57,636 bases of DNA from a virus. Taxonomy: Duplodnaviria > Caudoviricetes. A program made the translations under genes and the position numbers. Shown piece by piece: positions 30,970-42,733 of this stretch. The notes under the pieces were generated by a model. That model searched no databases and had not been told where the DNA came from. It saw nothing but the letters and a program-made list of their open reading frames with translations. The first letter of the stretch is position 1; each line of letters opens with the position of its first letter. The stretch covers positions 1-57,636 of the IMG/VR virus record IMGVR_UViG_3300030104_002283; one strand, written 5' to 3'.

Positions 30970-31060
30970 AGTTTGCGGTACCTTTAAGTTCTACTGGAGT
31001 AAGTAAATAGTAGAGGAGTAAATTATGAATAACTAAGTATAAAGATACCGCAAAACTTTC

Positions 31061-31134
31061 TAGTATATTACTAGTTCTAGTAATAATACTATATAAACTA
31101 AAATCTAGTGTATTACTCTCTAGTAAATCACTAG
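31061..31134. repeat. Two adjacent inverted repeats upstream of terL
   Basis: TAGTATATTACTAG-TT-CTAGTAATA(A)TACTA (31061-91) and CTAGTGTATTACT-CTCT-AGTAAATCACTAG (31105-34). Confidence 0.65.
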
Positions 31135-31163
31135 GGGCAATATACCCTATTATGAACATGGTT

Positions 31164-31418
31164 TCATATCTTCACAGATTCGTCAATAGTTTTTTCAACT
31201 TTTTTAAAAGGACTGTTTCTAGTGCTCATCACTGTACGCCATCTATTAGGTTGCATAGTAACCCAACCACCATCTTTAAGTCTATGTATCATAGCGTGTA
31301 TAGTGCTCTTAGAAGATAAACCTAATGCGTCAGCTAAAGCATCAAGACTAGGACCGCAGCCAAACTCTTCCCAGTATTCTTCTATGGTTTCTAAAAGTTT
31401 TAATTGTTTACTTGTCAT
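31164..31418 (-). CDS. LexA-like DNA-binding domain protein (no protease domain)
   Basis: MT.KQ..LL..I.......G..PS...LA..LGL.SKST.H.....L...G. Confidence 0.8.
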   Translation of the reverse strand: MTSKQLKLLETIEEYWEEFGCGPSLDALADALGLSSKSTIHAMIHRLKDGGWVTMQPNRWRTVMSTRNSPFKKVEKTIDESVKI

Positions 31419-31587
31419 AATATATATCCCCCCCCTGTATGGGACCCTAGAACATTATACGAACATTCCTATAAAAACGCAATATGTAAGTTAGTCAGAA
31501 ATAAAAAAGGGGTACCCCCCTATGAAAATTATGAAATTATATGTACAAAATAGTATGTACCCTAGACACACAAAAATTTTTATATGC

Positions 31588-31608
31588 GGGGGGTGGGGAG
31601 GGGTGGGG
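31588..31608 (+). other. Potential G-quadruplex
   Basis: GGGGGG-T-GGGG-A-GGGG-T-GGGG in an AT-rich intergenic region. Confidence 0.55.
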
Positions 31609-31648
31609 TTAATCCATATGGAAAAAGGGTTTTGCTGATAGTGAGTAC

Positions 31649-32119
31649 TTACTTGTTAAACATTGATTGTATCTTCTGTTCTAACTCTAACCTTATCTCA
31701 TCTGATGATTTATTGCTTGTGGTTGTTTCTAGTCTTTCAGTGAACAGTGCCACCTCTGACACTTTGCCTAGCAGTTCCAATGCCCTTATCCTAGATGCTT
31801 CGTTGTTCTCTGTATTCAATGCTTCTTTCTGTAGCTGTTCCAACACCATCTGTCTAAGAGATAGCCCTGTAGTGGAAGCATACTCACTCTTACGCCTTAA
31901 TCCTTGCTTTACCCTTTGGGATACCTTGGGGCTACTCATAAGCTTAGATGCTTCTGTCCATATGCTACTATCTTTCATATTCTCTGTGCTGTATGCGTTG
32001 CGATAACTCTCACTTGCTGTCATACCTGATAAGACCCCTTGAACAAATTTTTCTTGCTTGGGAGTAAGCCCTGATATGTTAGTTATATTATCCTTGTTAT
32101 TCTTGTCTTTATTGCTCAT
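31649..32119 (-). CDS. terS: Terminase small subunit
   Basis: LTPKQEKF......G...SE.YR.AY, EAS.L...PKV..R, RIRALELLGK. Confidence 0.82.
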   Translation of the reverse strand: MSNKDKNNKDNITNISGLTPKQEKFVQGVLSGMTASESYRNAYSTENMKDSSIWTEASKLMSSPKVSQRVKQGLRRKSEYASTTGLSLRQMVLEQLQKEALNTENNEASRIRALELLGKVSEVALFTERLETTTSNKSSDEIRLELEQKIQSMFNK

Positions 32120-32255
32120 ATCTATGTATTAATCTATTAATATTTAAAATTATTTTGATAGTGCTTACTATCACTGCAGTCCTATTATACGCTTACTTCG
32201 TAAGCAACAACAACTATGTTAACGAACATTTGTAGTAAATAATTACACTTTTTTA

Positions 32256-32284
32256 TTGACACGATACCCCACATAAACTAACAT
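32256..32284 (+). promoter_or_regulatory. Sigma70-type early promoter
   Basis: TTGACA (32256-61), 17-nt spacer, TAACAT (32279-84) at the strand divergence point. Confidence 0.75.
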
Positions 32285-32286
32285 AC

Positions 32287-32730
32287 GCAGTGTTGAGGGA
32301 TTGATGAGACCCAAAAAAGCGAAGAAAAAGTAGCTAACTCCCCTTTCCAAGACACCCATAACGAGACATCTAGTTCTCCTTGAAGTTGGGCTTCGCAACG
32401 AAGCAAAACGATTTGGGTTGCCTAGAGCAACACAAGGTATCGGGGAGACAAACAGAACGGGCTAAACTGGAAATGCCTATCGTGAAAAATCCGAGCATCA
32501 AGCTTTTGTGCGTTTATCCAGTATCCCGACAGTGTTGCCTTTGATGGTTCAATACCGATTTTGCGGAGAATGTAGCGGTTCTACCCTTGATTGAGTTTTT
32601 AAAACTGGCTTAGTGTCCTACTGAACATGGAACGGGGTGTAGCAGTAAAAGTGCTAATTCTGATGGTGTAGCAAAGTCTTTCTCTAGGGGCTAAAAGGTG
32701 TTGTGTGTAGTCAGAAAATCCCATGCTGTT
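32287..32730 (+). ncRNA. Large structured non-coding RNA candidate
   Basis: No ORF of 60 aa or more, GC-enriched, begins just after the promoter, with many nested complementary segments including 5'/3' end pairing GGGATT/AATCCC. Confidence 0.65.
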
Positions 32731-32769
32731 GTGAGTTTTTTGCTTATGTATTAACGATTTAATATTTGA

Positions 32770-32825
32770 TTATGTCCTTGAATTAACAAGCTGAACGAGT
32801 ATCCGCAAGGGTACAAGAAACATAA
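32770..32825 (+). ncRNA. Hammerhead ribozyme 1 (type III, variant core)
   Basis: TTATGT-C / CTTG-aattaa-CAAG / CTGAACGA / GTATCC-gcaa-GGGTAC / aa-GAA-ACATAA; predicted cut after GUC (32776). Confidence 0.75.
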
Positions 32826-32835
32826 CGGAGAAAAT

Positions 32836-33234
32836 ATGAGTTTTAATACAGCATACATAACAACATCAAGACATGGTACAAAAGATTATACGAATGGGCT
32901 TGATGAGATAGTAATTTCAAAAGAGATAGATTGGAACGATGACAATAGAAAAGATGAATTGGTATTTGGGAAATACTATGCTACTAAAGAAGAAGATAAG
33001 AATAATAAAAATCTTTATAAATTAGAGTATAGAAGTCAATTTGGCTTTGTTTTAAAGCCATATAACGAACATAGACCAAATTTAATTGGGGCTATGAATA
33101 ATGGAGTAATTGCTGAAGTACCATTTGATATTTGTAAACAATTAAAAGCATTTGTTGGTTATCCAATATCTAAATATATGCCTGTTCACGATAGATATGA
33201 AACGCAAAAACAGTACGATATGAATTTCAGATAA
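32836..33234 (+). CDS. Early hypothetical protein
   Basis: RBS GGAG at 32827; C-terminal P.HDRYET..QY. Confidence 0.75.
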   Translation: MSFNTAYITTSRHGTKDYTNGLDEIVISKEIDWNDDNRKDELVFGKYYATKEEDKNNKNLYKLEYRSQFGFVLKPYNEHRPNLIGAMNNGVIAEVPFDICKQLKAFVGYPISKYMPVHDRYETQKQYDMNFR

Positions 33235-33296
33235 ACCTATTGATAAGCAACACAGAAAGGTGGCGAAAACAAGGGCTGTATGTCCTTGTTCTAGGT
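33235..33296 (+). ncRNA. Hammerhead ribozyme 2 (type I, U3-A8 core)
   Basis: ACCTA / TTGATAA / GC-aa-CAC-agaaag-GTG-GC / GAA / AACAAGGGC-tgtat-GTCCTTGTT / C / TAGGT; cut after UUC (33291). Confidence 0.85.
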
Positions 33297-33324
33297 AATT
33301 ATATTAATTTTTATAGGAGTAAAT

Positions 33325-33513
33325 ATGAGTGAATTTAATCAAGTAAAATACTTAAAGAAATGTTTGAAAGAAGCAAGAGGAAAATTAGCATATGCAGTTA
33401 TGGAAGATATGTCTGATTTTATAATCAAAAGCTGTGAAGATTCTTGTAAAGCAATTGCTGAAGCATTAGAAGATGCTAAATTTTTAGAAAGTAGAAAAGC
33501 GGATTTTGAATAA
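33325..33513 (+). CDS. Early hypothetical protein
   Basis: RBS AGGAG; lies between two hammerheads. Confidence 0.7.
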   Translation: MSEFNQVKYLKKCLKEARGKLAYAVMEDMSDFIIKSCEDSCKAIAEALEDAKFLESRKADFE

Positions 33514-33526
33514 TATCAAGATTTAA

Positions 33527-33587
33527 ACCTATTGATAAGCAACACAGAAAGGTGGCGAAAAAGCGGACACTTGTTCGCTTTCTAGGT
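33527..33587 (+). ncRNA. Hammerhead ribozyme 3 (type I, U3-A8 core)
   Basis: Same 38-nt 5' half as ribozyme 2 but a different, still paired stem III (AAAGCGGAC-actt-GTTCGCTTT); cut after UUC (33582). Confidence 0.85.
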
Positions 33588-33607
33588 AAATTTTTAAAGG
33601 AGTAAAA

Positions 33608-33790
33608 ATGAAAGCAAATATTTATAAAATTAAATCAAAACAATTTAAGGTTTTTAATGGTATGACCATCAAGGCTTTAAATCCAGCAGAAGCGAAACAA
33701 GAGTTTAAAAATCTTGTTCAGCTTGAAACTAACGAGGTTGTGAAAAGCAATCAATTTAAAATTACGCTGAAATATGCGGGGGTAAATTAA
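33608..33790 (+). CDS. Early hypothetical protein
   Basis: RBS AAGGAG. Confidence 0.7.
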   Translation: MKANIYKIKSKQFKVFNGMTIKALNPAEAKQEFKNLVQLETNEVVKSNQFKITLKYAGVN

Positions 33791-33792
33791 AT

Positions 33793-34095
33793 ATGAAACA
33801 AAGTATAAATGAATATCAATTTAGAGATGCCTTTCATAAGATGGGTAGAGGAGAACAATTTTCATATGATGGGCTTAAAGCTTTATATGATTATTTAGAA
33901 CAGCTAGGAGATAACACGGGCGAAGAAATAGAACTAGATGTTATCGCCTTATGTTGTGAGTATGCCGAATATCAATGTCTTGAGGACTTTCAAAAAGATT
34001 ATGGGAAACGACATTACAAATCTATTGAAGATATAGAAGAACGAACAACAGTTATACAATGTGGTTTGGTCGGATTTATCATTCAACAATTTTAA
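33793..34095 (+). CDS. Early hypothetical protein
   Basis: F...F....R..QFSY.GL.AL.DYLE, ELDVIALCC.Y. Confidence 0.75.
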   Translation: MKQSINEYQFRDAFHKMGRGEQFSYDGLKALYDYLEQLGDNTGEEIELDVIALCCEYAEYQCLEDFQKDYGKRHYKSIEDIEERTTVIQCGLVGFIIQQF

Positions 34096-34622: not shown

Positions 34623-35624
34623 ATGAAAGCAAAACAATTAGAAAAAAGCTTAGAGAAGTTAATCTCTATTAAACAGCCCTGTTTCATATGGGGCGGTGTT
34701 GGTGTGGGTAAATCAGAGATTGTCCACAAAGTAGCTAAAGATATGGGCTATAGGATTGAAGATGTAAGAGTTGCATTGTTAGACCCTGTAGACCTTAGAG
34801 GTGTGCCTAGTGTTGAAGATGGAAGAACTGTTTTTAATCCGCCTGTATTTTTACCTACTGATGAACAGCCTAAAACATTGTTGTTTCTTGATGAACTTCC
34901 GCAAGGCAGTCCATCTGTACAGAACGCATTGTTTCAGCTAATCAAGGATAGAAAACTTGGCGAGTACACATTACCTAAAGATACTGTAATAGTTAGTGCG
35001 GGTAATAGAGTACAAGACAAGGCGGGGGCTAACAGAGTTAATACCGCTTTGGGAGATAGGTTTGTTCACTTGAACTTAGATGTATGCCATCAAGAATGGA
35101 TTGACTGGGGCATTAAAACTAAGAAGATAAAACAAGAAGTATTATCCTTTATCTCTTGGCAAGGCGAAGATTATTTATATCACTTTGATAAAAATGCTTC
35201 AGTCAATGCAACGCCTAGAGCATGGGAATATACAAGTAATGTATTGGCTACTGACCCTGATAAAGACATAGAGCAAGAACTTTATGCGGGTATTATTGGC
35301 GAGGGTATAGCCCCTGAATTTATAGCATTTGTTAGAAGATTTAGGAACTTACCTAGTGTTGATGTTCTGTTAAAAAATCCTGAAGATATTTTACAAGACT
35401 TAGAACTTAAATCAGACATGATTTATATGATTGTTGGTGTTCTAGCAAAAAATATGAATAAGGATAATATCCAAAAGTACTATGAATTTCTAAGAGATAC
35501 GCAAGATATTCAAGATGAGTTTTTAGTTATGGCTATGACTATGGCTACAGCTAGAGATGAAAGCTTGAAGAAAACAAAAACATATATTGATTATGAAATT
35601 GATTATCAAGATATTGGGGCTTAA
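34623..35624 (+). CDS. MoxR-like AAA+ ATPase
   Basis: Walker A GGVGVGKS, DLRG.P, Walker B LFLDE, AGNR, AL.DRF, TPR.W. Confidence 0.9.
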   Translation: MKAKQLEKSLEKLISIKQPCFIWGGVGVGKSEIVHKVAKDMGYRIEDVRVALLDPVDLRGVPSVEDGRTVFNPPVFLPTDEQPKTLLFLDELPQGSPSVQNALFQLIKDRKLGEYTLPKDTVIVSAGNRVQDKAGANRVNTALGDRFVHLNLDVCHQEWIDWGIKTKKIKQEVLSFISWQGEDYLYHFDKNASVNATPRAWEYTSNVLATDPDKDIEQELYAGIIGEGIAPEFIAFVRRFRNLPSVDVLLKNPEDILQDLELKSDMIYMIVGVLAKNMNKDNIQKYYEFLRDTQDIQDEFLVMAMTMATARDESLKKTKTYIDYEIDYQDIGA

Positions 35625-35666
35625 CAGCCCCTTGTCTATTAACCCATTAATATTTAAGGAGAAACT

Positions 35667-36548
35667 ATGGCTCAATTAAGAGACAAAGCATTATTGATTG
35701 AACTTCATTTGAAGAAATGGAGTGGAGTAAAAACTGATAAATCATTAAGAGATGAATTAGCTAATAATCATTCTATTGATGAGACTAGAATTTCAGTCAA
35801 CAAAAAACTAACTAACAGCCCTATCTTGAAAAAAATCAAAAAGATTGATGGCAAGATAAGAACTGAATGTATCTATAGCGGGGCGGGTTATAGCGGTTAT
35901 TGTTTGGCTTGGGATAATCAAGGTACTTATCTATTACCCATTGAATTAAAAGATAAGTTTGAAAGAGACTTCGTTGGTTGGCAGAACGAAAGAGAAAAAT
36001 TAGTAAAAGATTTTGTTAAACAATATGACAATATTATTGCAGAAGCTAAGACTGATTTAGGAACTACTTTTAATATTGATGATTTTCCTAGTAGAGATGA
36101 GATAGAAGATTTATTTGAGTGTAGCATCTTAAAGAAACCTATCCCATCAAGTAATGATATTAGAGTTAATCTTCCCGCCAGTGAGATAGCAGAGTTAAAA
36201 GCAAATGCTAAAGCTGAAGAAGATGCGAAGATGCAAAAGATAACTGGGGCAGTTGTTGATAAGGTTCAAGGTGTATGTAAACACTTTGCAGATAAGATTG
36301 ATAGCGGAGAAACATTTAGAGATAAAACTGTTGATAAGCTTATTGAACTTTGCGAAGTGCTACCCGCATTGAATATAAATGGAGATGCAAATATTCAGTC
36401 AGCACATCAAAAAGCTATGGATACTTTTCATGGTAAAGATATAACAGCAGATAAAGTTAGAAATGATAAAGAGTTAGCTAAAGAATTATCTAATACAGCT
36501 AAAGATATTGTTTCTGATTTAGATACTAAAGGGGGTTATTTTGACTAA
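35667..36548 (+). CDS. DUF3150-like helical protein
   Basis: W...K.DK, L.W...G..LLP, LG..FN..D.P, L..LN...D; lies between AAA and VWA-peptidase genes. Confidence 0.55.
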   Translation: MAQLRDKALLIELHLKKWSGVKTDKSLRDELANNHSIDETRISVNKKLTNSPILKKIKKIDGKIRTECIYSGAGYSGYCLAWDNQGTYLLPIELKDKFERDFVGWQNEREKLVKDFVKQYDNIIAEAKTDLGTTFNIDDFPSRDEIEDLFECSILKKPIPSSNDIRVNLPASEIAELKANAKAEEDAKMQKITGAVVDKVQGVCKHFADKIDSGETFRDKTVDKLIELCEVLPALNINGDANIQSAHQKAMDTFHGKDITADKVRNDKELAKELSNTAKDIVSDLDTKGGYFD

Positions 36549-37743
36549 CGATATTGATAAAAAAGCAAAAAACATAATGACTAAAGCTAGGGTTCATTTG
36601 TTAAAAAATAATCCTTTTTATGGAAAACTTGCTATGGATTTAGATTTTGTTGAAAGCAAAAAGTTTGACACTATGGCGGTTGATGGACAGAGAATATTCT
36701 ATAACCCTGACTTTGTGCATAAGATTACTTTTCTTGAAACAGTTGGAGTGATAGCCCATGAGGTACTTCATGTTGTCTTTAAACATCATTTGCGTAGGAA
36801 CGACAGAGACCCTTTCTATTGGAATGTTGCGGGAGACTATATCATCAATTACATTTTAAATGATGAGGGCTTTATGCTTCCTGAGGGTGGCTTACTTGAC
36901 TATTCTTACAAGGGTTCTACTACCGAGAAAGTATATGAAGATGTCTATAAAGAAAGCGATAAGCAAGATGCTAATACTGATGGCGGAGACAATACATCTG
37001 ATAGTGAAGATGATGAAAGAAAATCTTTATCTAAAAGAATGTGGGGCGAAGTCATAGATGCAGTCATTGAAGAAGTTGAGGGTGTATCTAACGAAGAACA
37101 AATAGAAAAGTTAGAACAAGAAATAAACGCTAAAGTCATTGATGCAACGCAAGTATCTAAGACTATGGGTAAAGGTGGAGATGCTTTTAAATCTATTATG
37201 GATATGGTTAGAACGCAGTCTGTATCTTGGGAAGAAGTGTTAGGTAATTTAATATTAGATAAGACTACTTCTAACGATTATAACTTTAATACACCTAACA
37301 GAAGATATGTATATCAAGATATGTACTTACCATCTGTTGAGAAAAAGCCTAACCCTAAAGGTGTGATTGCTCTTGATATTAGCGGGAGTGTAGATAAAGA
37401 AACTATGGCTATGATGCAAGATGCAGTGAATAACATTGTTCCTGTTGCTAACTTTGAAGAACTAACAATTCTTTATTGTGATGATTGCATAAGGCAAGTT
37501 GATACATTTCATGGTGGAGAAGAAGTTGAGTTGGATTATATTCGTGGTGGCGGAACAGACTTTGAGCCTGTATTCAAATATATAGATAAGGAACTTGATA
37601 ACGAGGTTGCTTTTCTTGTTTACCTAACTGATGGGTGGTGTTGGGATATACCTAGTGAGCCTGAATATCCTGTGATATGGGCGACAACGGACACTGACCA
37701 TTACTTTAAGGATAAATTTGGAGAGGTTGTTTATGTTGAATAA
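36541..37743 (+). CDS. DUF2201-type metallopeptidase + VWA protein
   Basis: T.AVDG..I.YNP.F, HEVLH, WN.A.D..IN; MIDAS DISGS, GGGTDF.P.F, YLTDG. Confidence 0.88.
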   Translation: MTNDIDKKAKNIMTKARVHLLKNNPFYGKLAMDLDFVESKKFDTMAVDGQRIFYNPDFVHKITFLETVGVIAHEVLHVVFKHHLRRNDRDPFYWNVAGDYIINYILNDEGFMLPEGGLLDYSYKGSTTEKVYEDVYKESDKQDANTDGGDNTSDSEDDERKSLSKRMWGEVIDAVIEEVEGVSNEEQIEKLEQEINAKVIDATQVSKTMGKGGDAFKSIMDMVRTQSVSWEEVLGNLILDKTTSNDYNFNTPNRRYVYQDMYLPSVEKKPNPKGVIALDISGSVDKETMAMMQDAVNNIVPVANFEELTILYCDDCIRQVDTFHGGEEVELDYIRGGGTDFEPVFKYIDKELDNEVAFLVYLTDGWCWDIPSEPEYPVIWATTDTDHYFKDKFGEVVYVE

Positions 37744-37779: not shown

Positions 37780-38046
37780 GTGAGTATGAAAAATAAGTAT
37801 TTAATAATTAGCAAAAGAAATGGAGACTTAGGTATTAACAAAGATGGATTTGTTCAATATCGTAATTTTTCTGATGAGCCATTAGTGATGGTGGTTGAAG
37901 AAGAAACTCCATTCACAAAACAAGATGCATTTAATGAGTTTGCATCTATGGTAGAAACTACAGAAGAAAGAAAATTAAATATTAACCATTTTAATATTTT
38001 CAGTGGGGCTGACATTGATGATATTAAATATTACTGGGGGGCTTAG
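37780..38046 (+). CDS. Hypothetical protein
   Basis: RBS TAAGGAG. Confidence 0.65.
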   Translation: MSMKNKYLIISKRNGDLGINKDGFVQYRNFSDEPLVMVVEEETPFTKQDAFNEFASMVETTEERKLNINHFNIFSGADIDDIKYYWGA

Positions 38047-38047
38047 A

Positions 38048-38743
38048 ATGAATAAAGAAAAACTAAAAAAGATAGCAGACAAGTTTGTTATGGAAAGAGA
38101 ACAAGAGCAGTTGGAATATCCTGTTGAGGATTATTCCGCAGACAAAGTTATTCTTTATCACGGAACTAATACAGATAACCTTGATAAGATACTTGAAGAT
38201 GGGCTGTATCCTAGAGGAAACAACGAGGGTAATTGGGAACATACCATACGCAGTAGAAATGATATGGTATATCTAACGAACTCTTACGCAGTTTACTTTG
38301 CTATGTGTTCAATACCTAAAGATAGCAAGGCAAGTCCTGTAGTCCTAGAAGTAGAGGTTGATACAAAAAGTCTTTACCCTGATGAAGATTTTATGGAACA
38401 AGCCACAAGAAATAATGCTATGTGGCAAGATTATTTTATGTCTATTGGACATGAAGATATGACAGCTAGAACCGAATACTTTAGAGATAACATATCTGAA
38501 TTTCAAGATGATTATACTAACAGTTTAAAGCATCTAGGTAATGCCTGTTATTTTGGGGAGATTAAACCTGAAAGCATCAAAAGATATTCTGTCTTAGATG
38601 TTGGTAAAGTTTGGGAACATTCTGACCCGACAATAACTTTAATGAATTATAAAATTTTAGGTAGCAAATATAGAAAGCTATCCAAAAAATTAATGTGGGA
38701 AGAACCCCTATCTATTAACCAAGTAATATTTAATAAGGAGTAA
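38048..38743 (+). CDS. ADP-ribosyltransferase-fold protein (Tpt1/KptA-like H-G-T motif)
   Basis: LYHGT....L..IL..GL.P, VYLT...A..FA, PVVLEV.V; start set at MNKEK. Confidence 0.6.
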   Translation: MNKEKLKKIADKFVMEREQEQLEYPVEDYSADKVILYHGTNTDNLDKILEDGLYPRGNNEGNWEHTIRSRNDMVYLTNSYAVYFAMCSIPKDSKASPVVLEVEVDTKSLYPDEDFMEQATRNNAMWQDYFMSIGHEDMTARTEYFRDNISEFQDDYTNSLKHLGNACYFGEIKPESIKRYSVLDVGKVWEHSDPTITLMNYKILGSKYRKLSKKLMWEEPLSINQVIFNKE

Positions 38744-40523: not shown

Positions 40524-41007
40524 TTTTTGTGTTATCTAAATTAGAATGATACAAGCGATTTGATATTTGGTGTAGCCCCCTTTTCAAGAGAGCCATATCA
40601 GATTGCTTGTTGATTTCTTTATTATCACTAATCACTTTAATAACAAAATGACCGATATGTTTTTTATCTTTTCTAAACATATTGGTTATTTGTTTTAATC
40701 TCATTGACTTTAGTAATCTGTAAGATGATTGCTTTTCATCACTAGACCTACCCGCAAGAGACAAATTAATCCCACCCTGTCCTAATATCCCTGACTTAAA
40801 ACATACATACAAAACAAACTGACCCGCATTATATTCTTTATCATCTATTAACGAGTTAATATATAACTTATCTATGATATTTTCTGTGGTGTTTCTACAT
40901 CTAAGATACTTTGTACCTAAATCTTCTATCACAAAAGTTCCATGTTGATGCAGAAACTTAGTGCCTAAGTCAGTCGATTTAAAAGTCAAAGTCGTACCTT
41001 TCATCAA
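40483..41007 (-). CDS. Hypothetical protein downstream of primase-helicase
   Basis: ORF overlapping the helicase stop; ID.L.....I....Y.AG. Confidence 0.55.
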   Translation of the reverse strand: MMKGTTLTFKSTDLGTKFLHQHGTFVIEDLGTKYLRCRNTTENIIDKLYINSLIDDKEYNAGQFVLYVCFKSGILGQGGINLSLAGRSSDEKQSSYRLLKSMRLKQITNMFRKDKKHIGHFVIKVISDNKEINKQSDMALLKRGLHQISNRLYHSNLDNTKTTCHYAVQSVVEA

Positions 41008-42733
41008 AGTTAATCTGTGTCATATCAGAATATACCCCCGTTGGTACATCATAGTCTAACATGGTTTGCCCCTGTTTACCTATCCATTTAAACCTACACT
41101 TCCAACAGTTTACAGATACCATATTATTTTCTTCTCTGTGTACTGTGATACCCACATCAGCTTTAGAAAACCACGAAGCAGAACCGCTAATATTATATCC
41201 AGTTGGTACTGGTATATTGCCTTTGCTATCGGGGTAAAGTTTCATTGGGTGTGCTACAAAAAATACATGGACATCATGTGCTTTCGCATACTGGGAAACT
41301 TTAGTAAGCATACGAGATATGCTATCAGTTTCGCTAAAACTTCTATCCATATCAATATAGTTGTACGGGTCTATTACAATACCTCTACAGCCCATCTGTC
41401 TTACAGCCCCTATACCTTTCTCTATGATACTATCTATCGTAGGATTTTCCCCGCCTGTAAAATCAATAAACAAAAAATGTTCTTCAACAAATCTAAGTGC
41501 GTTGTCTCTTTCATCTTCTGTCATGCGTTGAGTTGAACCACTAAAGAAAGATTTACCCACATACTTTTCTACAAGCTTTGCAATATGCAAGTCGGGTGGA
41601 TTTTCAAAACTACAGATAGCAAACTTCCAATCTTCATTTCTTGCTAAGTTAATCATAAGTTGGTCTATGAACTCTGACTTACCCGAACTGGGGATACCTG
41701 TGATGATACTCAGTTGTCCACCTGCAATTCTAAATAACTCATCTACATTATTAAAACCTGTGGATATGCCTGTCATAAAACCCTTATCGTACAATTCAAC
41801 AACACTGTTCTCGTAATGACTACTCTTATACAGAGAAGATAGAGGATATGGCTTGGCATTGTTTACAGCTTTTTGCAGTTTCTCTTTCCCCCCTTTTAAC
41901 AAACATTCATTTGCATCTTTGTATTCATGGGGTATTTCAGCTAGGAACACTTTATTTTTTCCAATTCGTCTAGCTAATTCTTCTGTTAAAGCTTTCCCGC
42001 TTTCATCATTATCACAACATAAAACAATTTTTTTAATAGCGTCTAACTTTTCTGCTACTTCCCACACATAACTAAACTTCTTATCTTCCTCTGGAGATAT
42101 TTTATTATTAGATACTTTCATTACAGCCCCATTGGGTACTGATACAGCACAATCTATACCCGCTTCATACAGTGCAAGTGCATCTAACTCTCCCTCACAA
42201 ATAACTATTAAGTCGTTAATATTTAATTTATCAAATCCAAATAAACTTCTTGAAGCCCCATCTTGGGTAAAACTTTTTCCATCTATGCTACGCCATTTAA
42301 CGGCTTGTAGTTTGCCGTTCACATGATAGGGAAAGCCTATCGCTTCCTTAGTGCCTACCCCATTAAACCCTCTTTCTTCCCATAAAATCCCATATTTTTT
42401 TGCAGTATCCTCTGAAATGCCCCTAGATTTAAGGAATTGTTTTTGTGTTTGTTTTATAGTACCTCCGGCTGTGTTTTTTACTTCGGGTTCTTTCAACACA
42501 GCTATAGGTTTTGTTTTTTTTGATGTGAAGTTAGTTGGTTGTTTGTTCATGTTTACTGCCCCTTGTAGTTGGCAGTGCCAACAATGATATAAAATTTTAT
42601 CCCCATCTCTTGTAAGAGAGAGGGTCTTTTCGTGTTTCTTTTTTCGCATATGACTACAAGATGGACAGACTAACCTTTTGTTTTGTCCATCATCTAAGTA
42701 TTCATCATTGATAATGTGTTCTTGGATTTGCAT
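40979..42733 (-). CDS. Primase-helicase (T7 gp4/Twinkle-like)
   Basis: Zn finger CPSC...CWHC, TOPRIM ICEGELDAL, SVPNGA, DND..G, KDANE; Walker A TGIPSSGKS, IDP, VAHP, GSA.W. Confidence 0.93.
   Translation of the reverse strand: MQIQEHIINDEYLDDGQNKRLVCPSCSHMRKKKHEKTLSLTRDGDKILYHCWHCQLQGAVNMNKQPTNFTSKKTKPIAVLKEPEVKNTAGGTIKQTQKQFLKSRGISEDTAKKYGILWEERGFNGVGTKEAIGFPYHVNGKLQAVKWRSIDGKSFTQDGASRSLFGFDKLNINDLIVICEGELDALALYEAGIDCAVSVPNGAVMKVSNNKISPEEDKKFSYVWEVAEKLDAIKKIVLCCDNDESGKALTEELARRIGKNKVFLAEIPHEYKDANECLLKGGKEKLQKAVNNAKPYPLSSLYKSSHYENSVVELYDKGFMTGISTGFNNVDELFRIAGGQLSIITGIPSSGKSEFIDQLMINLARNEDWKFAICSFENPPDLHIAKLVEKYVGKSFFSGSTQRMTEDERDNALRFVEEHFLFIDFTGGENPTIDSIIEKGIGAVRQMGCRGIVIDPYNYIDMDRSFSETDSISRMLTKVSQYAKAHDVHVFFVAHPMKLYPDSKGNIPVPTGYNISGSASWFSKADVGITVHREENNMVSVNCWKCRFKWIGKQGQTMLDYDVPTGVYSDMTQINFDERYDFDF

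What the first reader, a model, noticed from the sequence alone, without database searches (positions are those of the whole stretch)
32287..32730. Unrecognised ~450-nt multi-domain structured RNA next to terS
Nested pairings read directly: GGGATT(32297-302)/AATCCC(32717-22) extended by GCAGTGT/ATGCTGT; CCCCT(32340)/AGGGG(32686); AAGAC(32349)/GTCTT(32676); ACCC(32354)/GGGT(32635); TTCTCC-T-TGAAGTTGG(32374-89)/CCGATTTTG-C-GGAGAA(32555-70); hairpin GCTTCG-caa-CGAAGC; GCAACAC(32427)/GTGTTGC(32532); TCGGG(32440)/CCCGA(32525); ACTGG-AAATGC(32466-76)/GCGTTT-at-CCAGT(32510-22). All are mutually compatible, several contain G-U pairs (pointing to RNA rather than DNA structure), and the region is richer in GC than the rest of the genome. 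The promoter would define the 5' end and hammerhead 1 the 3' end. Large phage-associated ncRNAs (GOLLD, ROOL) are known, but I cannot assign this one. Decoy, anti-defence or scaffold roles are speculation.
Basis: partly seen in the sequence, partly recalled or inferred. Interest (0 to 1): 0.85.

Follow-up and report, generated by a model that had tools for sequence, protein, structure and literature searches.

The report
New pseudoknotted RNA in marine phages
A roughly 435-base stretch beside the phage's DNA-packaging genes encodes a conserved, intricately folded RNA that matches no catalogued RNA family; its function is unknown, and large RNAs of this kind are rarely found.

Summary
Window ~32290-32725 (+) lies in a 716-nt ORF-free gap between terS (minus strand) and the rightward genes, directly behind a sigma70-like promoter (32256-32284). 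I collected 30 distinct homologues in four clades from marine viral and metagenome contigs. A revised model of 104 base pairs is 90.3% paired. Sixty of its pairs change on both sides, against 39.6±2.8 in shuffles and 9-26 in shifted registers. The fold has a pseudoknotted core, a three-way junction, a dispensable arm, and a 3' hairpin. The invariant loop of that hairpin can pair with two 5' elements. Folding energy is no better than shuffles (z = +0.62). No Rfam family matches in any clade. The first downstream gene differs between clades, which argues against a gene-specific leader. Contigs from four marine metatranscriptome studies lie on the RNA. All 20 phage loci with TerL at least 85% identical and enough flank carry it; more distant relatives show none in the DNA held. 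Its function is unknown. My best reading is an early phage RNA that acts in its own right.

The parts
32256..32284 (+). Sigma70-like promoter (TTGACA, 17-nt spacer, TAACAT). The inferred transcription start is about 32290, roughly 7 nt before helix P1.
   Evidence: 10 of 12 matches. In one search, 30 of 30 homologues have a 7-11 of 12 match at a fixed distance from the RNA. The start site is inferred, not measured.
32290..32725 (+). The conserved structured RNA as a whole, about 435 nt. Conservation between clades ends after AAUCCCA (32717-32723).
   Evidence: Alignments; pair counts; nhmmer.
32297..32348 (+). 5' domain. P1 is 32297-32300 with 32345-32348. The P1a hairpin is 32306-32308 with 32338-32340; its A-rich loop is a 22-23-nt insertion found only in clade A. 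CCCU at 32341-32344 is the 5' strand of PK1.
   Evidence: P1 is 100% paired and 3 of 4 pairs change on both sides (GGGA/UUCC, AAAG/CUUU, UUGA/UUGA, GGGG/CUCU). P1a is 100% paired.
32361..32483 (+). Core, nested part. Hb is 32361-32364 with 32480-32483. It encloses the three-way junction Pc (32373-32383 with 32440-32449) and Hd (32459-32462 with 32475-32478).
   Evidence: Hb is 100% paired with 3 of 4 pairs covarying, and Hd is 100% paired with 3 of 4 covarying. Pc has 6 of 10 pairs with changes on both sides; part of it is misaligned in clade B.
32385..32409 (+). Hairpin hpA (32385-32395 with 32399-32409) with a CAA loop and the invariant sequence UCGCAA.
   Evidence: 6 of 9 pairs change on both sides. 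The outer part is shifted in the MAFFT alignment, so its pairing percentage is underestimated.
32413..32435 (+). Hairpin hpB (32413-32421 with 32427-32435) with the conserved loop CCUAGAG. The loop bases at 32424-32427 form the 5' strand of PK2.
   Evidence: 98.3% paired, 5 of 8 pairs change on both sides. The loop and its partner are listed.
32466..32522 (+). He (32466-32471 with 32517-32522), a pseudoknot helix that crosses Hd and Hb. Its long loop holds GAAAAAUCCG (32484-32493), hairpin hpC (32493-32496 with 32502-32505) and UUGUGCGUUUA (32506-32516).
   Evidence: He is 100% paired with 6 of 6 pairs changing on both sides. hpC is 95.8% paired with 3 of 4.
32523..32638 (+). Long arm. Hf is 32523-32528 with 32633-32638 and Hg is 32532-32536 with 32624-32628. 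The distal part is Hn (32546-32549 with 32603-32606), Ho (32554-32560 with 32589-32596) and Hp (32565-32571 with 32578-32585, loop GUAGCG).
   Evidence: Hf and Hg are complementary in 29 of 29 sequences long enough, in several different sequence versions. The arm spans 83-87 nt in clades A-C and 32-35 nt in clade D, so the distal part is dispensable.
32640..32716 (+). 3' domain. Hairpin q is 32640-32644 with 32652-32656 and is the site of clade-specific inserted hairpins. The long hairpin comprises Hh (32658-32664 with 32710-32716) and Hj (32671-32674 with 32701-32704), with the GGUGUA/GUGUA tract between them.
   Evidence: Hh is 97.9% paired with 4 of 7 pairs changing on both sides, and Hj is 96.1% with 2 of 4. 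By eye, four versions of Hj occur across the clades.
32681..32694 (+). Invariant loop block UCUCUAGGGGCUAA. AGGG (32686-32689) pairs with CCCU (32341-32344) to form PK1. CUCU (32682-32685) pairs with the hpB loop to form PK2.
   Evidence: PK1 is 100% paired but invariant in 28 of 28 sequences, so it carries no covariation information. PK2: in clade D both the loop (UAGAG to UUGAG or UGAG) and the block (CUCUA to CUCAG) change and stay complementary. That is one evolutionary event, with a one-base shift of register.
32717..32723 (+). Conserved 3' tail AAUCCCA. Its pairing partner is not identified.
32770..32825 (+). Hammerhead-like three-way junction between the RNA and the first ORF, present in clade A only. 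It is not shown to be a ribozyme.
   Evidence: Read by eye. The stems are kept in clade A. The core carries one extra base (CUGAA-Y-GA) and two extra A before GAA. No Rfam hammerhead hit appears at E up to 10.
31649..32119 (-). terS, the divergent neighbour. It is context and not part of the RNA.
   Evidence: Pfam Terminase_2, E 6.5e-09.

Best explanation
This is a gene for a structured non-coding RNA of about 435 nt, belonging to a family not in Rfam. The phages that carry it are marine podovirus-like phages whose nearest cultured relatives are pelagiphages.

How it is made. The host sigma70 RNA polymerase starts about 7 nt before the first helix and transcribes away from terS, at the head of the rightward gene block.

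How it folds. The RNA has four parts.
1. A 5' clamp (P1 and P1a) presents the sequence CCCU.
2. In the core, Hb and Hd stack on one continuous 3' strand. Hb encloses the three-way junction Pc/hpA/hpB. He crosses Hb and Hd as an H-type pseudoknot, and its loop carries invariant single strands (GAAAAAUCCG, UGUGCGUUUA).
3. A long arm (Hf, Hg) has a distal part that can be lost.
4. A 3' hairpin (Hh, a G-U tract, Hj) carries the invariant loop UCUCUAGGGGCUAA. This loop can pair with both CCCU and the hpB loop, which would tie the 5', core and 3' parts into one compact body.

What it most likely does. I think it acts as an RNA in its own right, such as a scaffold, decoy or catalytic RNA made early in infection. 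I think it is less likely to be a switch for one particular gene. It would be co-transcribed with the downstream genes. In some clades it may be separated from them by 3' processing.

Shown: conservation, strand, secondary structure, the He pseudoknot, the promoter-like site and its fixed position, and presence in RNA libraries.
Inferred: the transcription start, the 3' end, PK1 and PK2, early timing, action in trans, and any processing.
For: Homologues.
- There are 30 distinct sequences in 4 clades.

Structure.
- The revised structure of 104 pairs is 90.3% paired, against 77.6% in shuffles and 41-48% in registers slid by 1-3 columns.
- 60 pairs change on both sides, against 39.6±2.8 in shuffles (0 of 500 reach it) and 9-26 in slid registers.
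- The covariation score is 0.382, against 0.185 in shuffles and at most 0.123 in slid registers.
- He has 6 of 6 pairs covarying and crosses Hb and Hd, each with 3 of 4 covarying.
- Hf and Hg are complementary in 29 of 29 sequences, in several unrelated sequence versions.

Strand.
- Invariant G-U pairs occur on the + strand, for example columns 249/262 with GU in 29 of 30 and columns 281/403 with UG in 24.

Not protein-coding.
- Stop-free stretches are 91 codons or fewer and are not conserved in frame. Indels are not multiples of three.

Promoter.
- It is kept in position in 30 of 30 sequences although its sequence differs.

Not a gene-specific leader.
- The first downstream ORFs of 6 homologues are 10-24% identical to the window's.
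- No terminator-like site is found.

RNA libraries.
- Seven contigs from 4 metatranscriptomic runs of 4 studies lie on 32312-32787 at 85-99% likeness.

Linkage to the phage lineage.
- 20 of 20 loci with TerL at least 85% identical and at least 1,500 nt of upstream flank carry the RNA.
Against: - Folding energy is no better than shuffles.
- The RNA sits exactly where a 5' leader would sit. In clades B and C a ribosome-binding site and ATG follow within about 20-45 nt with no terminator, so it need not be a separate molecule.
- The contigs in RNA libraries cannot show strand, ends or level, and DNA can be present in such libraries.
- The sequences fall into four clades only, so the number of independent compensatory events is well below the number of covarying cells. 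PK1 never varies, and PK2 rests on one event.
- MAFFT misaligns clades C and D between columns 296 and 440. The distal arm (Hn, Ho, Hp) is therefore supported mainly by clades A and B.
- Nothing points to a partner, substrate or activity.
Confidence: 0.5

Rival explanations
1. It is a cis-acting 5' leader of the rightward operon. The same fold would work only on its own transcript. It might protect the mRNA 5' end, set translation of the first genes, or sense a host signal, as a very large riboswitch or leader would.
For: - It lies between a promoter and the first ORF in all four clades.
- No terminator-like site is found.
- In clades B and C the ribosome-binding site and ATG follow within about 20-45 nt.
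- One RNA-library contig runs from inside the RNA to 32787, past its conserved end.
Against: - The first downstream ORF is unrelated between clades, at 10-24% identity.
- Conservation stops sharply at 32723, before the ribosome-binding site.
- No conserved element that would sequester the Shine-Dalgarno sequence or terminate transcription was found.
- No riboswitch or leader family matches.
- By my recollection, the conserved core of about 300-435 nt is larger than any known riboswitch aptamer.
Confidence: 0.3
2. It belongs to a replication origin. Either the transcript primes DNA synthesis, like ColE1 RNA II or the R-loop origins of phage T4 (both recalled), or the + strand folds as single-stranded DNA.
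For: - The cumulative GC skew reaches its minimum at 32001-32400.
- A strong promoter fires into a structured region of about 440 nt.
Against: - The skew switch coincides with the switch of gene orientation, which explains it on its own terms.
- Nothing downstream of the structure is conserved between clades.
- The primase/helicase gene lies about 8 kb away, at 40979-42733.
- Invariant tandem G-U pairs and pseudoknots suit RNA better than DNA.
Confidence: 0.07
3. The reader's fully nested fold, closed by a 5'/3' helix (GCAGTGT..GGGATT with AATCCC..ATGCTGT), is the functional structure.
For: All 71 pairs form in the window. GGGATT/AATCCC is 92% paired across 30 sequences.
Against: - Overall it is 79.2% paired with 25 covarying pairs, against 20.2 in shuffles (16 of 500 shuffles reach it).
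- Seven of its 12 helices are only 52-80% paired.
- In L002, L005 and L177 the GGGA strand changes together with 32345-48, not with AAUCCC.
Confidence: 0.05
4. There is no functional RNA. The conservation reflects DNA-level regulatory sites or a missed small protein gene.
For: The adjacent 135 nt (32120-32255) is also highly conserved and carries inverted repeats that look like operators.
Against: - Compensatory changes occur in 60 of 104 pairs, with controls.
- No frame stays open across the clades.
- Indels are out of frame.
Confidence: 0.02

Closest known systems
Large 'ornate' bacterial and phage non-coding RNAs of unknown function (GOLLD, ROOL, OLE)
   Same: It is over 400 nt, multi-domain and pseudoknotted, with many invariant unpaired bases. 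It is phage-borne and its function is unknown. I saw GOLLD and ROOL described as ornate RNAs that form homo-oligomers only in the search listing and abstract of PMC12286853.
   Different: It matches none of their Rfam models. It is smaller. The window has no tRNA genes; the tRNA neighbourhood of GOLLD and ROOL is my recollection. It was found only in one lineage of marine phages.
Large ribozymes with a pseudoknotted core (group I introns, RNase P RNA)
   Same: The order of strands (Hb 5', junction domain, He 5', Hb 3', hairpin hpC, He 3') recalls the P3-P7-P8 arrangement of group I introns, which I cite from memory. Conserved joining strands surround the pseudoknot.
   Different: No Rfam hit appears at E up to 10. 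There are no flanking exons, because a promoter lies directly upstream and terS is on the other strand. Both hairpins lie inside Pc, unlike P4-P6. Hd has no counterpart. No catalytic activity is shown.
Riboswitches and other structured 5' leaders
   Same: It lies between a promoter and the first ORF.
   Different: The downstream gene is not conserved. No expression platform is found. No family matches. It is much larger.
phi29 packaging RNA (pRNA)
   Same: It is a phage-encoded structured RNA, and here it lies next to the packaging genes terS and terL.
   Different: By my recollection pRNA is about 120-174 nt and belongs to protein-primed phages that lack terS. No Rfam match was found. This RNA is transcribed away from the packaging genes, together with genes of another module.
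Candidate structured RNAs of viruses from IMG/VR (Fremin, Bhatt and Kyrpides 2023, PMC10690425)
   Same: They come from the same data source and from the same kind of screen, covariation in intergenic regions.
   Different: Section 2.1, which I read, gives lengths of 29-151 nt, so the whole RNA is not described there. Their lists are in supplements that I could not see, so single hairpins of this RNA may be among them.

Membership tests
Any Rfam 15 family (including GOLLD, ROOL, OLE, HEARO, RNase P, group I and II introns, tmRNA, pRNA, riboswitches) | A score at or above the family's gathering threshold against its covariance model | tested here: not met
   There were 0 hits in the 57,636-nt window and 0 in five homologous loci of clades A-D, 38,289 nt in all. 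With E up to 10, only unrelated matches of 9.8-19.6 bits appeared.
Large ornate phage-associated ncRNAs (a kind, not a homologous family) | Over 400 nt, with several domains, pseudoknots and covariation support, and non-coding | tested here: met
Large ornate phage-associated ncRNAs (a kind, not a homologous family) | Homo-oligomeric assembly | not testable with these tools
   This needs native gels, SEC-MALS or cryo-EM. PK1 and PK2 could in principle form between molecules; covariation cannot tell.
Group I intron | Interrupts a gene and has flanking exons with a P1 splice-site helix | tested here: not met
   A promoter lies directly upstream. The only upstream gene, terS, is on the other strand.
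Group I intron | P3-P7 pseudoknot with P8 between, and a P4-P6 domain | tested here: inconclusive
   Hb, He and hpC have that strand order. However, hpA and hpB both lie inside Pc, and Hd is an extra helix. The comparison is from memory, not from a model.
Riboswitch or gene-specific cis-regulatory leader | Consistent association with one downstream gene family | tested here: not met
   The first downstream ORFs are 10-24% identical between clades.
Riboswitch or gene-specific cis-regulatory leader | An expression platform, either a terminator or a helix that sequesters the ribosome-binding site | tested here: not met
   No terminator-like site is found in 31900-33400. Conservation ends before the ribosome-binding site.
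Hammerhead ribozyme (the element at 32770-32825, not the large RNA) | Core CUGANGA ... GAAA with three stems and an NUH cleavage site | tested here: not met
   In the window the three stems and GUC are present. The core reads CUGAA-C-GA and has AA inserted before GAA. No hammerhead model scores at E up to 10. In the clade D version (L211) I read CUGAAGA and GAAA by eye, with a U-U pair closing stem II. It also scores with no Rfam hammerhead model.

The most novel reading that the evidence does not exclude
The RNA is a new class of large functional RNA made by abundant marine phages. It could be a ribozyme built on the Hb/Hd/He pseudoknot and its invariant joining strands. Alternatively it could be a self-assembling RNA-only particle like ROOL or GOLLD. 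In that case the 'long-range' pairings PK1 and PK2 would form between neighbouring molecules rather than within one.
Probability: 0.15. Interest if true: 0.92.

Novelty: new variant of a known kind. Interest (0 to 1): 0.72.

Why it matters
- By my recollection, structured RNAs above 400 nt with a pseudoknotted core and many invariant unpaired bases are rare, and most that are understood turned out to be ribozymes or parts of large machines.
- This one is carried by every sampled member of a lineage of marine phages related to pelagiphages. It matches no catalogued family, and sequences matching it occur in ocean metatranscriptome libraries from four studies.
- It gives RNA biologists a compact, well-defined target with natural deletion variants: the clade D arm and the clade-specific inserts.
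- It shows that marine phages, too, encode elaborate RNAs.
- The practical lesson for this scan is that the energy-versus-shuffle test would have thrown the finding away, while the hand-drawn fold was mostly wrong. Only homologues settled both questions.

Tried and rejected
- Energy test: no signal on either strand. I did not take this as evidence against structure.
- RNAalifold on 13 and on 23 sequences gave partly different, purely nested folds. I used them only as leads.
- GenBank phages, blastn 'distant' mode with the 716-nt gap: no match.
- Genome contigs motif scan: the 4 stretches found gave no nhmmer hit, so they are chance matches.
- More distant relatives gave no nhmmer or covariance-model hit. 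These were the terS loci L018-L034 at 40-55% identity, the TerL loci L218-L267 at 73-81%, and Pelagibacter phage HTVC027P (L268). This covers only the flanks held. Gene order differs in those phages, so absence from the phages themselves is not proven.
- mafft-qinsi was not usable. As a result, clades C and D remain misaligned in columns 296-440 of alignment A5.
- A scan for further covarying short helices among unpaired conserved blocks found nothing convincing. The partner of AAUCCCA remains unknown.
- Read laying: the four RNA runs show no cover on terS or on the ORFs after 32836. Three contigs start at 32312-32313. These are assembled contigs from runs that were picked using this very stretch. 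The missing cover and the common start therefore cannot be used as evidence about level or ends.
- Cobalamin-riboswitch idea, prompted by the MoxR-like ATPase and VWA-like genes downstream: no such family scores.
- IscB/omega-RNA idea: the 400-aa protein that PHROGs calls an HNH endonuclease is a DUF2201 metallopeptidase/VWA-like protein by Pfam, and it lies 3.8 kb away.
- Literature: five searches found no description of this RNA. They were 'pelagiphage' with 'structured RNA', 'HTVC027P' (55), large structured RNA/phage/covariation/marine (71), GOLLD/ROOL/bacteriophage (75), and 'pelagiphage' with 'noncoding RNA' (91). Term searches inside PMC9599517 and PMC12753301 for intergenic, noncoding, ribozyme and similar words gave 0 occurrences.

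Full report
**Setting.** The window is a complete virus record of 57,636 bp. The finding lies in a 716-nt gap without sizeable ORFs (32120-32835). On the minus strand to its left are terS (31649-32119, Pfam Terminase_2, E 6.5e-09), a small LexA-like DNA-binding protein and terL. To its right, on the + strand, come small ORFs of unknown function. After them come a MoxR-like AAA ATPase, a DUF3150 protein and a DUF2201 metallopeptidase/VWA-like protein. The nearest cultured phages by TerL are Pelagibacter phages HTVC027P and HTVC023P and two uncultured-type records, at 54-57% identity. The window contains no tRNA genes.

**Checking the observation.** The region is richer in G+C than its surroundings. 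A promoter-like site, TTGACA-17-TAACAT, sits at 32256-32284. Chance is not excluded by energy, however. The + strand folds at -115.2 kcal/mol against -118.65±5.58 for shuffles, z = +0.62, and 73 of 100 shuffles fold at least as well. The minus strand gives z = -0.53. Rfam gives nothing at gathering thresholds and only unrelated weak matches at E up to 10.

**Homologues.**
- A terS search in IMG/VR gave 33 loci. Fourteen of them carry a homologue of the gap, with nhmmer E of 1e-52 or lower over query positions 1 to about 612.
- Motif scans followed: three in viral contigs, one in metagenomes and one in genome contigs. Filtering by nhmmer added more sequences. Of the 24 metagenome stretches, 22 were true hits. 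Of the 4 genome-contig stretches, none was.
- TerL is far more conserved than the RNA: 87% identity between the window and L160. A TerL search followed by nhmmer uncovered a fourth, more divergent clade.
- In total there are 30 distinct sequences: clade A (the window and 13 others), clade B (9), clade C (1 distinct sequence on several contigs) and clade D (6).
- All 20 loci with TerL at least 85% identical and at least 1,500 nt of upstream flank carry the RNA.
- None of the 20 loci with TerL 73-81% identical and the same flank length does. Nor do HTVC027P or the distant terS loci, by nhmmer or by a covariance model of the core. This holds only within the DNA held.

**The fold.** It has 25 pairs with changes on both sides, against 20.2±2.3 in shuffles (on 13 sequences). 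Starting from helices that stay complementary across clades, I derived a different model of 104 pairs. That model is 90.3% paired, against 77.6% in shuffles and 41-48% when partners are slid by 1-3 columns. Sixty of its pairs change on both sides, against 39.6±2.8 in shuffles (0 of 500 reach it) and 9-26 in slid registers. Its covariation score is 0.382, against 0.185 and at most 0.123. The slid registers keep the relatedness of the sequences, so this signal is not a by-product of phylogeny.

Individual helices (window coordinates are under 'parts'):
- P1, Hb, Hd and He are 100% paired, with 3 of 4, 3 of 4, 3 of 4 and 6 of 6 pairs covarying.
- hpB, hpC, Hh and Hj are 96-98% paired.
- He crosses Hd and Hb, so the core is an H-type pseudoknot.
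- Hf and Hg are complementary in 29 of 29 sequences long enough, in several unrelated versions. For three sequences (L176, L211, L214) the script reported another place first.
- The distal arm (Hn, Ho, Hp) is absent in clade D, where the Hg strands lie 32-35 nt apart instead of 83-87 nt.
- Clade A has a 22-23-nt A-rich insert in the P1a loop. Clades B, C and D have their own inserted hairpins near hairpin q.

- ACTGG/CCAGT survives as He.
- The top of the GCTTCG hairpin survives as hpA.
- CCCCT/AGGGG survives as PK1, which is invariant.
- The closing helix GGGATT/AATCCC fails. In L002, L005 and L177 the 5' strand becomes UUGA or AAAG and the compensating change occurs at 32345-48, while AAUCCC stays unchanged.
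- The 15-pair helix, GCAACAC/GTGTTGC and TCGGG/CCCGA are replaced by Pc, hpB and Hf/Hg.

**Long-range contacts.** The most conserved block, UCUCUAGGGGCUAA (32681-32694), lies in the 26-nt loop of the 3' hairpin. AGGG can pair with CCCU of the 5' domain (PK1). This pairing forms in 28 of 28 sequences but never varies, so it says nothing either way. CUCU(A) can pair with the hpB loop UAGAG (PK2). In clade D both sides change, to UUGAG or UGAG and to CUCAG, and remain complementary with a one-base shift. This is one event, which is suggestive but not proof.

**Strand, coding and promoter.** Many invariant G-U pairs on the + strand would be C-A mismatches on the other strand. No frame stays open, and indels are out of frame. 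All 30 sequences have a 7-11 of 12 sigma70-like match whose -10 hexamer ends 32-34 nt upstream of CCCCU. In clade A, which has the insert, the distance is 53-55 nt. The hexamers and the spacer themselves differ between sequences. The structure therefore begins a few bases after the inferred start site.

**What follows the RNA.** Conservation between clades ends at AAUCCCA (32717-32723). In clades B and C a ribosome-binding site and ATG follow within about 20-45 nt. Clade A has a U-tract followed by a hammerhead-like three-way junction at 32770-32825. Its stems are kept, but its core has extra bases. Clade D has an element that I read by eye as close to a type III hammerhead. No Rfam hammerhead model scores on either element. 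No terminator-like site is found. The first downstream ORFs are unrelated between clades, at 10-24% identity.

**Expression.** Fifteen public runs hold parts of the stretch, and 11 of them are on record as RNA. I laid four metatranscriptomic runs from four studies on 31000-34000. Seven of their contigs (151-254 nt, 85-99% alike) lie on 32312-32787. An eighth lies on 31189-31224 and has loose ends. These are assembled contigs. They show that the sequence occurs in RNA libraries of seawater, but they cannot show its strand, ends or level.

**Interpretation.** The evidence establishes a conserved, pseudoknotted RNA family that is linked to one phage lineage and placed at the head of the rightward genes. 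What it does is not established.
- I put 0.5 on an RNA that works in its own right. The reasons are the many invariant unpaired strands around a pseudoknot, the non-conserved downstream gene, the sharp 3' limit of conservation, and the optional processing-like elements.
- I put 0.3 on a cis-acting leader of the operon.
- I put 0.07 on an origin or primer role. The GC-skew minimum lies here, but it coincides with the switch of gene orientation.

**Novelty.** Rfam 15 has no match for any clade. Five literature searches and term searches inside two pelagiphage papers found no description. The IMG/VR-wide screen of Fremin et al. reports candidates of 29-151 nt only (section 2.1). Its lists are in supplements that I could not open, so single hairpins of this RNA may already be listed there.

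Noticed in passing
window 32120-32255: The 135 nt between the terS start codon and the RNA's promoter are almost invariant across clades A and B. They carry three short inverted repeats: 32157-62 with 32167-72, 32191-96 with 32200-05, and 32216-20 with 32225-29. They look like operator or promoter elements for the leftward packaging genes, perhaps for the LexA-like protein at 31164-31418.
   Followed up: no
window 32263-32278 and the same place in the loci: The promoter spacer reads CCCCAC in most of clade A. It reads the reverse complement, GTGGGG or GTGGTG, in clades B, C and D and in the L005-type members of clade A. The same short word therefore occurs in either orientation at the same place.
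   Followed up: no
window 32770-32825; L211 minus strand about 1693-1627: Hammerhead-like three-way junctions lie between the RNA and the first ORF in clades A and D only. The clade D version reads CUGAAGA ... GAAA with an AUA cleavage triplet and a U-U pair closing stem II. The window's version has one extra base in CUGANGA and two extra A before GAA. Rfam scores neither.
   Followed up: partly
window 34623-37743: Three genes lie in a row: a MoxR-like AAA ATPase (333 aa), a DUF3150 protein (293 aa, below Pfam's cut-off) and a DUF2201 metallopeptidase/VWA-like protein (400 aa). PHROGs labels the last of these an HNH endonuclease.
   Followed up: partly
window 38003-38743: A 246-aa protein has a weak match, below Pfam's cut-off, to the poly(ADP-ribose) polymerase catalytic domain (E 1.6e-05).
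   Followed up: no
L008 2595-2772 (minus strand): One clade B member has a 6-nt insertion in the otherwise invariant hpB loop. It keeps the UAGAG bases proposed to form PK2.
   Followed up: no
window 33240-33300: A second GAAA ... hairpin ... UC arrangement lies between the 132-aa ORF and the next ORF. By eye its core does not fit CUGANGA, and Rfam gives no hit in 31900-33400.
   Followed up: partly
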